Source: a virus (taxonomy: Duplodnaviria > Caudoviricetes). Taken from it: a DNA stretch of 64,000 bases. Both the position numbers and the translations under genes were made by a program. The stretch is from positions 1 to 64,000 of the IMG/VR virus record IMGVR_UViG_3300017716_001697; one strand, 5' to 3'. Numbering within the stretch: position 1 is the stretch's first letter; the number at the start of each line of letters is the position of its first letter. The notes beneath the pieces were generated by a model that worked only from the letters and a program-made list of their open reading frames with translations, ran no database searches and was not told the origin of the DNA. Below, one piece after another: positions 3,756-41,463 of the stretch.

Positions 3756-3809
3756 ACACACTAGGAACCAAATGGGAGTGAAACGTCCGTGGCATAGTGT
3801 GTTGAATAT

Positions 3810-3896
3810 GGTGTAGCGATGCAGTTGGAGAGGCATGAGAGGCTGTAACCCTCTTTCCGTAAGGATGAATAGGTTCGAATCCTATATGCACCACCA
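3810..3896 (+). tRNA. tRNA-Tyr(GTA)
   Basis: Cloverleaf, loop CTGTAAC, long variable arm, CCA. Confidence 0.85.
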
Positions 3897-3902
3897 TATT
3901 TA

Positions 3903-4027: not shown

Positions 4028-4102
4028 GGGCTGCTAGTATAGGGGGAATTATCACTGCCTTGCACGTAGTAGATCGGGGTTCGAGTCCCCGGCGGTCCAC
4101 CA
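4028..4102 (+). tRNA. tRNA-Ala(TGC)
   Basis: Loop CTTGCAC, G3-U70, CCA. Confidence 0.9.
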
Positions 4103-4111
4103 AGTTTCTAA

Positions 4112-4167
4112 AGAATGCGTTCTGCAAATAACAAAATTCAACTTTTAATTGAAAAATAAGCATTCTG
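4112..4167 (+). ncRNA. CAGCA-motif RNA with Lys(TTT)-like anticodon loop
   Basis: AGAATGC-G-TTCTGCA...GCATTCTG; inner TTCAA-CTTTTAA-TTGAA. Confidence 0.55.
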
Positions 4168-4176
4168 ATTTATTAC

Positions 4177-4251
4177 GCCTCGTTCATATAGTGGTTATTA
4201 TGATCGGCTGTCTACCGGTACATAGGGGTTCGATTCCCCTACGAGGCGCCA
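4177..4251 (+). tRNA. tRNA-Asp(GTC)
   Basis: Loop CTGTCTA, CCA. Confidence 0.9.
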
Positions 4252-4353
4252 GGTTCTTGCAAGAAGTAAAGAGGTACGGTGGTCCAGCGATGCGGGGACT
4301 ATAAAAGCCGATTGACACCTGGGGTAAAACTCCATACGCATCCCCAATTTTAA

Positions 4354-4408
4354 AGATTACCTACAGCAATTAAAAATTCACTGTAAATGAAACCAAATGT
4401 GTAATCTG
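4354..4408 (+). ncRNA. CAGCA-motif RNA with Tyr(GTA)-like anticodon loop
   Basis: AGATTAC-C-TACAGCA...GTAATCTG; inner TTCA-CTGTAAA-TGAA. Confidence 0.55.
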
Positions 4409-4418
4409 ATTTATTTTC

Positions 4419-4494
4419 GCTCTTTTAGTATAGTGGCTGATTATGACGGTTTTGTAGTCCGTAGACGGGAGTTCGATTCTCTCAAAGAGCACCA
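4419..4494 (+). tRNA. tRNA-Thr(TGT)
   Basis: Loop TTTGTAG, acceptor GCTCTTT/AAAGAGC, CCA. Confidence 0.85.
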
Positions 4495-4499
4495 GTTTT

Positions 4500-4690
4500 G
4501 TTAAGTATAAGGATGTTTCCACCGCCCATTGAAGGCGAAGAACTACTTAACGATGTTTTTTTAACTTAGTATACGGCACATCAGGTTAAGATGAATGCTA
4601 ACTCCAGGTATCGGGGTGTAAACTACTAAGTTAGGATTTTAATAAGAAATATATCAGTCGACTCTGAATCGAAAATCACTATTTCTTTAT
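4500..4690 (+). ncRNA. Three 'stem-TA...C-stem' tRNA-core mimics (4500-4551, 4563-4632, 4642-4690)
   Basis: Long inverted repeats enclosing TA...C; two contain Gln-like loops (CATTGAA, CTCTGAA). Confidence 0.5.
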
Positions 4691-4766
4691 CTCTCTAAAG
4701 TGTTATCTGGTTGCACTCGCCATTTGGGGTGGTGGGGTTTCGGTTCGAATCCGGATAGGGAGACCA
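4691..4766 (+). tRNA. tRNA-Pro(TGG)
   Basis: Loop TTTGGGG, CCA. Confidence 0.8.
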
Positions 4767-4773
4767 AATTTAT

Positions 4774-4847
4774 TGCCTTGTAGCTCAATGGTAGAGCATT
4801 CGACTGATAATCGAACGACGACGGTCCGATTCCGTACGAGGCAACCA
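4774..4847 (+). tRNA. tRNA-Ile(GAT)
   Basis: Loop CTGATAA, CCA; T-loop variant TCCGATT. Confidence 0.85.
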
Positions 4848-8603: not shown

Positions 8604-8607
8604 ATAT

Positions 8608-8749
8608 TTGGGTATACTTCGGAGGTTATACAACGGAAGTAATTTCGTATAACTGTGGATGTTGTTCCTACCCAAACTATTTTATAAAGTAAGTATATGG
8701 GGCTTTCGACAGGGCTGGTTTACCTCCCTTAGATTCATACCTACTTACT
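8608..8749 (+). ncRNA. Two 'stem-TA...C-stem' elements (8608-8675, 8688-8749)
   Basis: TTGGGTA-TA...C-TACCCAA and AGTAAGTA-TA...C-TACTTACT. Confidence 0.45.
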
Positions 8750-10278: not shown

Positions 10279-10621
10279 TTCAACATTCGAGCTAACGCTG
10301 GCAACAGAGGAAGTTCGGGACAAGCGCCAAGGGCGTGTGGGAGAGTGGTTATTTGATGGGGCATAGTGTCGGCCGGCTCAAATCTAATACGGAGTTGTTA
10401 GAAGCCAAGCAGAGATTTATCATCAAGCTAGATCCGCAAGGATGACAAAAGGTTCCTGAGACGGGTTCAACTCCCGGATGCTCCACCAAATAACTACTTG
10501 TTACACCACCGTGATACAGCTTGCAACACAAACAGAACCTGGGAACTCTTGGCTTATAGGTTCGGGTTGTGGCAAAGATTAATGTTAGCATAGAACAGAA
10601 TCCCGGCTACGGAATGTTGAA
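10279..10621 (+). ncRNA. rnpB: RNase P RNA (type-A catalytic domain)
   Basis: P1, P2 (GCTAAC/GTTAGC), P3, CR-I GAGGAAGTTCGGG, P5 CAAGC/GCTTG, P6 GCCAAG/CTTGGC, P15-16 with GGT, CR-IV AGATTAAT, CR-V ACAGAATCCCGGCTA. Confidence 0.85.
10358..10488 (+). ncRNA. Ala-acceptor tRNA/tmRNA-like domain nested in the RNase P RNA
   Basis: GGGGCAT/ATGCTCC with G3-U70, ACCA, GAC-GGGTTCAACTCCC T arm. Confidence 0.7.
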
Positions 10622-10711: not shown

Positions 10712-10804
10712 TGATTTATAGACAAACGGAATTCATGTACAGATACTTGATCAGCGGGCCCTGCAACGCTGTAAGTGACAACGCTGTATCTTCTCCCTAA
10801 ATCA
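10712..10804 (+). ncRNA. 'stem-TA...C-stem' element
   Basis: TGATTTA-TA...C-TAAATCA with inner helices. Confidence 0.4.
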
Positions 10805-15451: not shown

Positions 15452-15514
15452 AGAATGCTTCCAGCAAATTCAAAAATTTCAAAACCATTATCTTTGAAAA
15501 GAAAAAGCATTCTG
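15452..15514 (+). ncRNA. CAGCA-motif RNA
   Basis: AGAATGC-T-TCCAGCA...GCATTCTG. Confidence 0.6.
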
Positions 15515-31311: not shown

Positions 31312-31410
31312 CTTGTGACACATATGATGTGATAAATACTTTTGTCGCATAGTGTGACTAACAGAATTAAACAACCAAGCACTTATTCTGTGTGCTGTAA
31401 AAAGGAAAAT

Positions 31411-32307
31411 ATGATGTACCAAGACAAGCTGGCCGTAGCTATCAAACACAACGGCAAAATCCTCCGCGAAACAAAAGACCTAGTTCATTTACCATTTGGT
31501 AGTGAATTCAGTGTTCTAGTTAAAAACCTCAATTCTAGGCGTGTAAAGTTTACACTTAGCATTGACGGTGCAAATGCGTTAGATGATACAGAAATCATTG
31601 TTAATGCAAATTCTGAAACAGAAATCAAACGCTTTATTCGCAATGGTAATATGGATGAAGGTAACGCATTCAAGTTCATTGAGCGTACACAGGCAATCGA
31701 GGATGGTCCACGCGGCATTAAAGTCGATGATGGTGTAGTACGTGTTGAATTTTGGTTTGAAAAGGAAAAGCCACAGATTACAGTAAAAGACATTTATTGG
31801 GAAAAGCACCATTATCGTGACTTTTATCCGCAACAAAATATTTGGACCACAACATACGGCAGTGGTCCCACTGTGTACGGGATGTCTAACATAAGCGGAG
31901 CAAGTGGTTCTATTGCTTCTGCGACATCTGCCACATTAGATAGTGGAAAAATTACAGCACAATCATTGAATAGTGTCACACGTGGGATGACAGATGAAGT
32001 ACGTAAACAGAATACTTCGGCGCCGCATACAGGTGTGAAAGAAGTTGACACTTCTGAACTGATTAATGATGTAGGCATTACCGTACCGGGTTCTAAAGTA
32101 GATCAAAAGTTTACTACTGTATACGGATTTGATTCTGAAACTCAGTCACATGTAATTGTGTTACGCTTGGTTGGTGTAAGTGGTGATAAGGTTGTAACTC
32201 AACCAATCACTGTAGCAGCAAAACCGACATGTGTGACATGTGGTAGAGTAAATAAGGCAACATCCAAATTTTGCACCGCTTGCGGAACAAGTTTGACTCT
32301 GCTATAA
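31411..32307 (+). CDS. Hypothetical protein with C-terminal zinc ribbon
   Basis: CVTCG...FCTACG. Confidence 0.75.
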   Translation: MMYQDKLAVAIKHNGKILRETKDLVHLPFGSEFSVLVKNLNSRRVKFTLSIDGANALDDTEIIVNANSETEIKRFIRNGNMDEGNAFKFIERTQAIEDGPRGIKVDDGVVRVEFWFEKEKPQITVKDIYWEKHHYRDFYPQQNIWTTTYGSGPTVYGMSNISGASGSIASATSATLDSGKITAQSLNSVTRGMTDEVRKQNTSAPHTGVKEVDTSELINDVGITVPGSKVDQKFTTVYGFDSETQSHVIVLRLVGVSGDKVVTQPITVAAKPTCVTCGRVNKATSKFCTACGTSLTLL

Positions 32308-32323
32308 TTTAAACACTAGACAC

Positions 32324-32673
32324 TACAAATAACATATACCAAAGTAGCATAAAGAATGCGCTGCGAAAGCAGAGAGCCTGGCAAGAGCATTACCGGTAAG
32401 GCAATCTATGTTATTTGTATTGGATAGTGTGTTTAAATATTGAGTTTTATCTTGACTGCATATACATACCGAATTTACTGTTATGTCGCAAACTCAATAT
32501 TTAAACACAACCAATACACATGTCTGTAGAATAAAGGTAGTTCGGTAGCTTTCAACTTCGGGTGCTGGTTCGAGTCCAGACAGGCTGCTGTGTATTAGTA
32601 TGTTTATAAATTAAGTATAAAGGTGTTATTGCATACCCGTCTTTGAAATGGGTGGATCTACTTAATTTATAAA
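32324..32673 (+). ncRNA. Cluster of three 'stem-TA...C-stem' elements plus a degenerate tRNA-Glu-like RNA
   Basis: Inverted repeats 32324-32419, 32417-32517, 32603-32673; last holds D arm plus Gln(TTG) anticodon arm. Confidence 0.55.
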
Positions 32674-32680
32674 TAGATAG

Positions 32681-41175: not shown

Positions 41176-41463
41176 AGATTAATGGAATAAGTATGCTAAA
41201 TGGTCTAGAACATTTAACCGCCGAATCTAAACAAATAAACACAGATTCTTACTTAATTCTATTACTTAATAACAAATGAGAACGTATACTAGATGCTGTA
41301 TATGCATGTAGTCTTATAATAATACTAAGCTGGTATATTATTCTACTAAAATTTGTTATGTGATAAATAAACTTACAGTATGCGCTACAATAACCGCCAA
41401 AGTATAATATGCAGACGGACGTAAGCCAGAGTATAAATGATATATCCTACTGTAAAAATTAAT

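What the first reader, a model, noticed from the sequence alone, without database searches (positions are those of the whole stretch)
4500..4690. Family of 'anticodon-domain-only' tRNA mimics (stem-UA...C-stem)
Nine elements (4500, 4563, 4642, 8608, 8688, 10712, 32324, 32417, 32603) have a long closing duplex followed by TA on the 5' side and preceded by C on the 3' side, although the stem sequences are unrelated. In the clearest copy (32603-32673) the interior is D arm, Gln(TTG) anticodon arm and variable loop, so TA and C read as tRNA U8-A9 and C48, with acceptor and T arms replaced by a plain helix. The 4500 and 4642 copies also show Gln-like loops. Inference: unchargeable tRNA-core mimics, complementary to the elbow mimics.
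Basis: partly seen in the sequence, partly recalled or inferred. Interest (0 to 1): 0.7.

Follow-up and report, generated by a model that had tools for sequence, protein, structure and literature searches.

The report
Shared-handle hairpin RNAs among phage tRNAs
A 364-kb freshwater phage and its close relatives place among their tRNA genes small hairpin RNAs that share one conserved closing "handle" and carry different inserts, some of which copy the anticodon loop of glutamine or histidine tRNAs. They are real RNAs kept by selection, but the idea that they act as tRNA decoys is untested.

Summary
All nine elements have a closing helix followed by UA and preceded by C. Eight also share the innermost pairs U-A and A-U, usually as GUA|UA...C|UAC. 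In the first 35 kb, 7 helices of at least 8 bp carry the full junction on the tRNA strand, against 0.07 in shuffles, 0 on the other strand and 2 of 493 elsewhere. I found 34 members in nine related phages. Orthologues keep the helices through compensatory changes while the loops stay fixed: E9 has 6 compensatory pairs and none broken, and its loop CUUUGAA is unchanged in three lineages. So this is a real, selected RNA family with a common handle and varied cargo.

The tRNA-mimic reading is only partly supported. E3, E9 and their orthologues have 7-nt loops C-U-N-U-G-A-A/C, like the phage's own tRNA-Gln and tRNA-His loops. Against it:
- The "D arm" has no D-loop signature.
- E1 has A at position 33, and its orthologues have 9-nt loops.
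- Some inner stems shrink to 2 bp.
- The anticodon drifts among CUG, UUG, GUG and AUG.
- E2 and E4 to E8 carry no arm of this NUG anticodon-loop type.
- Rfam's tRNA model finds nothing.

Function is unknown. I saw no RNA data.

The parts
4498..4553 (+). E1: handle (10 bp, ...AAGUA|UA...C|UACUU...), a 3-bp mini-hairpin, and a 4-bp stem with loop CAUUGAA (4527-4533)
   Evidence: z -3.4. Orthologues L088:3980-4039 and L122:501-556 have compensatory P2 and P3 pairs.
4559..4636 (+). E2: handle (13 bp, GUA|UA...C|UAC) enclosing two hairpins with 7-nt loops AGGUUAA and AGGUAUC. These loops are not anticodon-like.
   Evidence: z -2.8. No orthologue found.
4644..4687 (+). E3: handle (8 bp, AUA|UA...C|UAU) and a single 4-bp stem with loop CUCUGAA (4662-4668), 3 nt upstream of tRNA-Pro
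   Evidence: z -1.1. Positional orthologues upstream of tRNA-Pro in L005, L010, L088, L095 and L122 have loops CUCUGAC, CUGUGAA, CCAUGAC, UCUUGAC and CUUUGAC.
8607..8676 (+). E4: handle (GGGUA|UA...C|UACCC) enclosing a long hairpin capped by a GUAA tetraloop. No anticodon-like arm.
   Evidence: z -1.5
8688..8749 (+). E5: AAGUA/UACUU helix. Here the UA pairs inward opposite a CC bulge, so this is a variant or a chance member.
   Evidence: z -1.6
10712..10804 (+). E6: 7-bp handle (UUA|UA...C|UAA) enclosing a 79-nt branched cargo with loop GGCCCUGCAA, directly after tRNA-Leu(CAA)
   Evidence: Orthologue L005:17362-17456: 29 pairs, 6 compensatory, 0 broken.
32324..32419 (+). E7: 13-bp handle (AUA|UA...C|UAU) enclosing three hairpins, one with a GAAA tetraloop
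   Evidence: z -3.5. Orthologues in G002 (L031, - strand) and L126:3505-3583.
32416..32518 (+). E8: long hairpin with an outer 8-bp and an inner 20-bp helix (32428-32509). Its junction is UU|UA...C|AA, so it lacks the UA/AU closing pairs.
   Evidence: z -6.4. The G002 orthologue has GUA|UC...A|UAC.
32601..32675 (+). E9: 17-bp handle (AAGUA|UA...C|UACUU), a 4-bp mini-hairpin, and a 6-bp stem with loop CUUUGAA (32641-32647)
   Evidence: z -4.5. Against G002: 27 pairs, 6 compensatory, 6 one-sided, 0 broken. The loop is unchanged in W, G002 and L126.
41373..41455 (+).

Best explanation
These are small non-coding RNAs of about 45-100 nt, made from the same transcripts as the phage tRNAs and built on a handle-and-cargo plan.

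The handle is a helix formed by the two ends of the unit. Its innermost pairs are kept in sequence (R-U-A paired with U-A-Y). It is followed by an unpaired U and by an A that faces a C.

The cargo differs from unit to unit. In one subfamily (E1, E3, E9 and relatives) it is a hairpin that imitates the anticodon arm of NUG tRNAs (Gln and His).

Most likely mechanism (inferred):
1. The units are released when the neighbouring tRNAs are cut out.
2. The closed handle protects them from exonucleases and docks a common partner protein or processing enzyme.
3. The anticodon-arm cargo competes with real tRNA-Gln and tRNA-His for a factor that reads U35-G36-A37 in the anticodon loop. That factor could be a host anticodon nuclease, a modification enzyme or a synthetase.

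Shown here: the family, its strand and place, the helices, and selection on loops and junction.
Inferred: transcription, release, a partner, and competition with tRNA.
For: - Junction enrichment: 7 observed against 0.07 expected, and specific to the tRNA strand.
- 34 members in nine phages. 26 have GUA/UAC closing pairs and 28 have UA...C.
- Helices are kept by compensatory change while loops and junction stay fixed. E9 against G002 has 6 compensatory pairs of 27 and none broken, at 66% identity. E6 against L005 has 6 of 29.
- Seven-sequence alignment: 97% of cells paired, 12 of 17 pairs changed on both sides, 0 of 500 shuffles as high, and slid registers collapse.
- A model built from three E1-type copies recovers E9, G002-E9, two L088 copies and L010_b, all on the tRNA strand.
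- The E9 loop CUUUGAA is identical in W, G002 and L126, whose neighbouring protein is only 56% identical.
- Loops of the E3 group are C-U-N-U-G-A-A/C in four of six orthologues. Among 252 tRNAs of these phages, only tRNA-Gln and tRNA-His have that pattern with the closing GA/UC.
- L010_b differs from the anticodon arm of that phage's tRNA-Gln at 3 of 17 positions.
- The units sit 3-10 nt from tRNA ends, like tRNA units in an array.
- E7 to E9 lie outside the canonical tRNA array, so this cluster is not spacer structure between tRNA genes; in the window a tRNA-like unit sits between E8 and E9, and G002 lacks it.
Against: - No RNA data, so transcription and stability are not shown.
- No partner was identified. 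The phage has no GlnRS/GluRS-type gene and no RNase III gene.
- The anticodon-like triplet is not kept among orthologues (CUG, UUG, GUG, AUG). E1-type orthologues have 9-nt loops, and two E3-type orthologues have 2-3 bp inner stems. A decoy of one particular tRNA should be more constant.
- The E9 arm sequence was not found in any tRNA gene among 120 bacterial matches.
- Within this genome the count of Gln/His-like hairpin loops outside tRNAs is small: 5 in 35 kb, against about 0.07 per kb elsewhere.
- E2 and E4 to E8 have no arm of this NUG anticodon-loop type.
- Many of the 34 members were found by searching for the motif itself, so the junction frequencies are biased upward.
Confidence: 0.35

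Rival explanations
1. The elements are punctuation of the polycistronic tRNA precursor. They act in cis as insulating or protective hairpins, and their handle is a recognition or entry site for a processing RNase. On this view the cargo has no function of its own.
For: - They are packed between tRNAs on the tRNA strand with 3-10 nt spacers.
- The E3 type is positionally tied to tRNA-Pro in six phages.
- The shared junction with varied interiors would suit one enzyme acting on all units.
- Real tRNAs in these phages can also be closed by leader-trailer helices, for example tRNA-Tyr at 3805-3900 and L029:9590-9692.
Against: - Cargo loops are under selection while the stems drift. Examples are CUUUGAA in three lineages and the E6 loop and E7 hairpins in their orthologues.
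- E7 to E9 lie after a protein gene, outside the canonical tRNA array, and G002 keeps the cluster with no tRNA-like unit in it.
- No phage RNase III gene.
- Most handles are too short (8-13 bp) for RNase III.
Confidence: 0.25
2. The elements are functional small RNAs with some other mode of action. Examples would be loop-loop or antisense pairing through the NUGAA loop, or a scaffold for a phage protein unrelated to tRNA. On this view the likeness to anticodon loops is coincidental or only historical.
For: - What is invariant is U-G-A plus A or C. The nominal position 34 takes all four bases and position 33 is not always U.
- Loop size varies between 7 and 9 nt.
- UUGAA is complementary to UUCAA, which occurs in the loop of the neighbouring tRNA-like unit at 32520-32588.
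Against: - No conserved complementary partner was found.
- G002 lacks the neighbouring tRNA-like unit yet keeps E9.
- The E3-type arm shares the closing pairs GA/UC with tRNA-Gln as well as the loop.
Confidence: 0.2
3. The elements are decayed remnants of tRNA genes. Internal deletions kept the acceptor stem, U8-A9 and one arm, and the remnants have no present function.
For: - The layout resembles a tRNA with arms removed.
- Related units carry a T arm (L095:3024-3095) or a D-arm-like hairpin (L005:13904-13937) in the same kind of handle.
- Gene order in these arrays turns over quickly.
Against: - Compensatory changes with no broken pairs, and invariant loops at 56-82% identity of the neighbouring proteins, are not what neutral decay gives.
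- The handles are AT-rich and 8-20 bp long, unlike acceptor stems.
- The conserved GUA/UAC is not a feature of the tRNAs of this phage.
Confidence: 0.1
4. The conserved TATA of the junction acts at the DNA level as a promoter -10 box, a recombination site or a cruciform, and not in RNA.
For: The junction reads GTATAA(T/A/G), which resembles TATAAT.
Against: - No sigma-70-type promoter is called at any junction.
- AGTATAA is not over-represented in the genome: 49 observed against 56 expected.
- A start site downstream of the TATA would leave the 5' arm untranscribed, yet that arm covaries with the 3' arm.
- The motif is strand-specific.
Confidence: 0.05
5. The E3 and E9 types are working minimal tRNAs without T and D arms, like the armless mitochondrial tRNAs of nematodes, and they decode CAN codons.
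For: E3 is 44 nt with an 8-bp stem, two connectors and an anticodon arm. This is the armless tRNA layout (my own knowledge of nematode mitochondrial tRNAs).
Against: - No single-stranded 3' end, discriminator or CCA follows the helix, whereas the tRNA genes of this phage whose 3' ends I read encode CCA.
- The handles reach 17-20 bp.
- Bacterial EF-Tu and ribosomes need the T arm and elbow (established knowledge).
- The phage already has normal tRNA-Gln and tRNA-His.
Confidence: 0.03

Closest known systems
Y RNAs and bacterial or phage YrlA bound by Ro60/Rsr (Rfam RF02553), and the second 'handle RNA' family reported by earlier notes in this same phage
   Same: The two ends pair into a conserved handle, and a variable inner module can imitate part of a tRNA. 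There are several copies per genome, located in or near tRNA arrays.
   Different: - The handle sequence is different (GUA|UA...C|UAC, not the Ro-binding helix and not AGAAUGC/GCAUUCU).
- The imitated part is the anticodon arm, not the elbow.
- No Rfam YrlA match falls on these units.
- No partner protein is known.
Phage T4 stable RNAs C and D (species 1 and 2) in the T4 tRNA gene cluster (own knowledge)
   Same: Small stable non-tRNA RNAs encoded among phage tRNA genes and made from the same precursors. Their function is still unknown.
   Different: The T4 RNAs are 120-140 nt and are not reported to share this handle or an anticodon-like loop.
Anticodon-arm mimic in the E. coli thrS leader, bound by ThrRS (own knowledge)
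   Same: A hairpin outside any tRNA whose 7-nt loop copies a tRNA anticodon loop and is read by a protein that normally reads tRNA.
   Different: The thrS operator sits in the 5' UTR of the synthetase gene and controls its translation. These units are free-standing in tRNA arrays, and the phage has no GlnRS/GluRS-type gene.
Phage tRNAs that counter tRNA-cleaving defences: T5 tRNA-Lys against PARIS, and tRNA-Tyr against Septu and Retron-Eco7 (reviewed in PMC13728456)
   Same: Phage-encoded RNAs in tRNA arrays whose anticodon stem-loop is the point of contact with a host nuclease.
   Different: Those are complete, chargeable tRNAs that replace the cleaved host tRNA. These units lack the acceptor end and the T arm, so they could only act as competitors.
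T-arm-less and armless mitochondrial tRNAs of nematodes (own knowledge)
   Same: The layout is stem, short connector, anticodon arm, short connector, stem, with about 44 nt in E3.
   Different: There is no free 3' end or CCA, the closing helix is long, and the setting is bacterial translation.

Membership tests
tRNA (Rfam RF00005) | Scores with the tRNA covariance model | tested here: not met
   No tRNA match on E1 to E9 at E up to 10, although every real tRNA nearby is found. ARAGORN calls none of them.
tRNA (Rfam RF00005) | T arm with a T-loop, and a D loop with G18-G19 forming the elbow | tested here: not met
   No T arm in E1, E3 or E9. The first hairpin has a 3-7 nt loop without GG.
tRNA (Rfam RF00005) | Anticodon arm: 5-bp stem and 7-nt loop with Y32, U33 and R37 | tested here: inconclusive
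   Met by E3, E9, G002-E9, L005_b, L010_b and L122_b. Not met by E1 (A33), by L088_b, L122_c and L126-E9 (9-nt loops), or by L088_c and L095_b (2-3 bp stems, C33).
tRNA (Rfam RF00005) | Single-stranded 3' end with discriminator and CCA | tested here: not met
   The helix is closed on both strands and is followed by AU-rich spacer. The tRNA genes of this phage whose 3' ends I read encode CCA.
Armless or T-arm-less tRNA | 7-bp acceptor stem with a chargeable 3' end | tested here: not met
   Handles are 7-20 bp with no CCA or discriminator.
YrlA / Y RNA (RF02553) | Match to the family model; a Ro60-binding helix | tested here: not met
   The only weak YrlA match (20.9 bits, 4735-4797) lies on tRNA-Pro and tRNA-Ile, not on these units. 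Binding to Ro60 cannot be tested here.
Synthetase-operator type anticodon-arm mimic (thrS type) | Lies in the leader of the cognate synthetase gene | tested here: not met
   The units lie between tRNA genes or after a zinc-ribbon protein gene. No GlnRS/GluRS-type gene in the phage.
Self-cleaving ribozymes and riboswitches with three-way junctions (hammerhead, purine and others) | Match to the Rfam models | tested here: not met
   No such match at E up to 10.
T4 RNA C / RNA D | Sequence or structure likeness to the T4 RNAs | not tested
   No T4 RNA C or D sequence or model was at hand. Only the location among tRNA genes is shared.

The most novel reading that the evidence does not exclude
The anticodon-arm units (E1, E3, E9 and relatives) are free-standing RNA decoys. 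A conserved handle presents a copy of the tRNA-Gln/His anticodon loop (U35-G36-A37) to soak up a host anticodon nuclease or another enzyme that reads the anticodon loop. This would be an RNA-only counter-defence that works without supplying a functional tRNA. The same handle would present other cargoes (E2, E4, E6, E7) to other targets.
Probability: 0.15. Interest if true: 0.8.

Novelty: new variant of a known kind. Interest (0 to 1): 0.5.

Why it matters
Large phages carry many tRNA-like RNAs whose roles are unknown. This family adds a defined and testable design: one conserved handle with interchangeable cargo, in some units an isolated anticodon arm.

If the anticodon-arm units bind enzymes that read tRNA-Gln or tRNA-His, they would be the first phage RNA decoys aimed at the anticodon end of tRNA. 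The known elbow mimics (Y RNAs) and the replacement tRNAs that defeat PARIS or Septu work differently.

Even without a known function, the handle (GUA, unpaired U, then A facing C, then UAC) is a compact motif that can be searched for in other phage genomes. It can also be used as bait for the partner protein.

Tried and rejected
- Rfam at gathering scores and at E up to 10: nothing on the units.
- BLASTN against GenBank phages found only tRNA matches and no close relative.
- Short BLASTN of E1 to E6 against related loci found only the E6 orthologue. The others had to be found by position.
- An exact-pattern scan of IMG/VR for the E9 core gave 45 matches, of which only the G002 copy has a closing helix.
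- A loose motif and descriptor scan gave mostly noise. A strict one recovered only close-clade members.
- Model R1 finds no member in the distant complete genomes G004 and G005.
- MAFFT misaligned the inner stems by one column, so the model was built from three E1-type copies only.
- Sequencing runs: no RNA holder listed. Contigs from four runs show a relative about 91% identical across 4101-4640, and in one form E3 plus tRNA-Pro is replaced by 681 other letters. The per-base differences inside E1 to E3 were cut from the output.
- Sigma-70 promoter and terminator scans found nothing at the junctions.
- The word AGTATAA is not enriched in the genome.
- No phage GlnRS/GluRS domains and no RNase III.
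- Neighbouring proteins gave no lead:
  - The 340-aa and 321-aa ORFs have no informative Pfam or PHROG family.
  - The 321-aa zinc-ribbon protein upstream of E7 to E9 folds as beta-sandwich domains (pLDDT 62) with no significant PDB match.
- Two literature searches found no description of such units.
- Considered from the sequence alone and dropped: hammerhead, box C/D, K-turn, sarcin-ricin, retron, REP, IS200 ends and the purine riboswitch junction.

Full report
**Setting.** The window is the first 64 kb of a 364,576-bp IMG/VR phage record with direct terminal repeats. It holds 43 tRNA genes called by ARAGORN and a two-piece tmRNA, all on the + strand. The nine elements lie in gene-free stretches:
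- E1 to E3 lie between tRNA-Thr and tRNA-Pro.
- E4 and E5 lie between a tRNA-like unit and tRNA-Leu(UAG).
- E6 lies directly after tRNA-Leu(CAA).
- E7 to E9 lie after a 321-aa zinc-ribbon protein gene and before a weakly PTH2-like gene and a CUA-anticodon tRNA.

**The observation.** Eight of nine also share the two innermost pairs T-A and A-T, mostly as GTA|TA...C|TAC. E8 has TT|TA...C|AA.

In the first 35 kb the + strand has 66 closing helices of at least 8 Watson-Crick pairs. Eleven have TA...C and seven have the full junction. One hundred dinucleotide shuffles gave means of 1.0 and 0.07. The same helices read on the other strand gave 1 and 0. The remaining 330 kb gave 2 full junctions in 493 helices. 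The junction is therefore non-random, strand-specific and confined to the tRNA islands.

Folding energies are clearly better than shuffles for E1, E2, E7, E8 and E9, but not for E3 to E6. In E5 the TA pairs inward, so that copy is doubtful.

**Relatives.** I fetched related loci in three ways:
- A 340-aa ORF inside the array gave 27 viral and 42 metagenome loci.
- The zinc-ribbon gene gave 32 more loci.
- A DNA search of five related records with window:31900-33900 gave L031 to L038, including L031, the source of the G002 copies.

Gene order in these arrays changes fast, and only phages whose marker protein is about 56-89% identical keep comparable spacers. In them I found the same kind of unit at the same places:
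- After tRNA-Thr or another tRNA (E1 type): L088_a, L088_b, L122_c, L010_a, L005_a, L006_a.
- Just upstream of tRNA-Pro (E3 type): L005_b, L010_b, L088_c, L095_b, L122_b.
- After tRNA-Leu(CAA): the L005 orthologue of E6.
- After the zinc-ribbon gene: E7 to E9 in G002, and E7 and E9 in L126.

In all there are 34 members in nine phages. Twenty-six have GUA/UAC closing pairs and 28 have UA...C. The exceptions are UG...C (2), UG...U (2), UC...A (1) and UC...C (1). Most members were found by searching for the motif, so these proportions are biased. The exceptions came from orthology.

**Selection on structure.**
- E9 and its G002 copy are 66% identical. They keep 27 pairs with 6 compensatory and 6 one-sided changes and none broken. 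The junction UAAAG and the loop CUUUGAA are unchanged.
- In L126, whose neighbouring protein is 56% identical, the 20-bp handle is rewritten but still pairs, and the strand CCCGU-CUUUGAA is identical.
- E6 against its L005 copy has 29 pairs, 6 compensatory and none broken.
- A covariance model from three E1-type copies recovers E9 (30.9 bits), G002-E9, two further L088 units and L010_b, all on the tRNA strand. It finds nothing else in the whole genome and nothing in two distant complete genomes.
- On the resulting seven-sequence alignment, 97% of cells pair and 12 of 17 pairs change on both sides. No shuffle of 500 reaches this, and slid registers collapse. The alignment is fitted to the model, which inflates these figures somewhat.

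These are selected RNA structures, not chance hairpins or decaying tRNA genes.

**Is it a tRNA core?** Partly, and only for a subfamily.

In favour:
- E3, E9, G002-E9, L005_b, L010_b and L122_b have a 4-7 bp stem with a 7-nt loop C-U-N-U-G-A-A/C.
- The phage's own tRNA-Gln genes have CUCUGAC and CUUUGAC, and its tRNA-His has CUGUGAA.
- Among 252 tRNAs of these phages, that loop pattern with closing GA/UC occurs only in tRNA-Gln and tRNA-His.
- L010_b differs from the anticodon arm of that phage's tRNA-Gln at 3 of 17 positions.
- The E9 interior is 41 nt, the length of tRNA positions 8-48.

Against:
- The first hairpin has none of the D-loop signature.
- E1 has A at position 33.
- Its orthologues, and L126-E9, have 9-nt loops.
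- Two E3-type orthologues have 2-3 bp stems and C at position 33.
- The triplet drifts among CUG, UUG, GUG and AUG.
- Rfam's tRNA model finds none of the units.
- The 17-nt E9 arm occurs in no tRNA gene among 120 bacterial matches.
- E2, E4, E5, E6, E7 and E8 carry other cargo.
- Related handles enclose a T arm (L095:3024-3095), a D-arm-like hairpin (L005:13904-13937) or a whole tRNA-Pro (L029:9590-9692).

So UA and C are not U8-A9 and C48 throughout the family. The variants UG...U and UG...C suggest instead an unpaired U followed by an A.C, G.U or G-C pair. This is an inference from few cases.

**Other readings.**
- A DNA-level role for the TATA is unlikely. No sigma-70 promoter is called there, the word is not enriched in the genome, and the 5' arm covaries with the 3' arm.
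- Pure processing punctuation does not explain invariant cargo loops, nor the E7 to E9 cluster, which lies outside the canonical tRNA array. It remains a serious partial explanation for the handle.
- Working armless tRNAs are excluded in practice by the closed ends without CCA.

**Function.** I could not test it. No RNA run is listed for this DNA. The phage has no GlnRS/GluRS-type gene or RNase III. The neighbouring proteins gave no lead.

My best reading, at about one in three, has three parts. The units are released with the tRNAs. The handle stabilises them and docks a common partner. The anticodon-arm cargo competes with tRNA-Gln and tRNA-His for a factor that reads U35-G36-A37. The specific decoy-against-nuclease version I put at about 0.15.

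**Comparison with what is known.**
- The design is closest to Y RNAs and YrlA, and to the other handle RNA family that earlier notes report in this genome. The handle is different, and the imitated part is the anticodon end, not the elbow.
- It shares its location with T4 RNAs C and D.
- It shares the idea of an isolated anticodon-arm mimic with the thrS operator.
- It shares its biological setting with the phage tRNAs that defeat PARIS and Septu (PMC13728456).

I found no description of such units in two literature searches. An earlier first-reader note of this scan (e1-5367102) described the E7 to E9 stretch as tRNA-derived fragments mounted on inverted repeats. My results agree on the architecture, and they add the shared junction, the orthologues and the covariation.

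Noticed in passing
window 10712-10804 and L005:17362-17456: E6 is a distinct conserved RNA directly after tRNA-Leu(CAA). It has an unchanged loop GGCCCUGCAA and 6 compensatory pairs between the two phages. Its cargo is unrelated to tRNA.
   Followed up: partly
window 32324-32419; L031 (- strand); L126:3505-3583: E7 is a conserved unit with three inner hairpins (with its handle, a four-way junction), one of them capped by a GAAA tetraloop, and a kept stretch GCAAG..AUACCGG. It always lies after the same zinc-ribbon protein gene and before E9.
   Followed up: partly
window 3805-3900; L029:9590-9692: Real tRNAs can be enclosed by leader-trailer helices that extend the acceptor stem. tRNA-Tyr has AATAT...ATATT. 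In L029 a tRNA-Pro(UGG) lies inside a 20-bp helix with the same GGGTA|TA...C|TACCC junction.
   Followed up: no
L005:13904-13937 and L095:3024-3095: Similar handles enclose other tRNA pieces. In L005 the cargo is a D-arm-like hairpin (GUGU AUUGGUA ACAC), though its closing pairs differ (UAG|UA...C|CUA). In L095 it is a T-arm-bearing insert.
   Followed up: no
window 4640-4760: In contigs of two public metagenome runs from a phage about 91% identical, E3 and most of tRNA-Pro (4641-4759) are replaced by 681 other letters. Other contigs keep them. This points to rapid turnover of array units.
   Followed up: no
window 10279-10621: Weak match to archaeal-type RNase P RNA (27.8 bits), with a weak tmRNA-like match inside it at 10358-10488. 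Earlier notes of this scan describe a reduced RNase P RNA with a nested tRNA-like gene here.
   Followed up: no
window 4113-4167, 4355-4408, 15452-15513: Repeated hairpins with the stem AGAATGC/GCATTCT. The first two give weak matches to Dictyostelium Class I RNA. This is the other handle family, which earlier notes assign to the Ro60-like gene.
   Followed up: no
window 31342-32307: A 321-aa protein with a C-terminal zinc ribbon and predicted beta-sandwich domains lies directly upstream of E7 to E9 in three lineages. It has no Pfam, PHROG or PDB relative.
   Followed up: partly
window 32520-32588: A 69-nt tRNA-like unit sits inside its own 8-bp helix between E8 and E9. ARAGORN calls it Glu(UUC), but Rfam scores it 22.5 bits, below threshold. 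It is absent from G002. Its loop CUUUCAA is complementary to the E9 loop over 5 nt.
   Followed up: no
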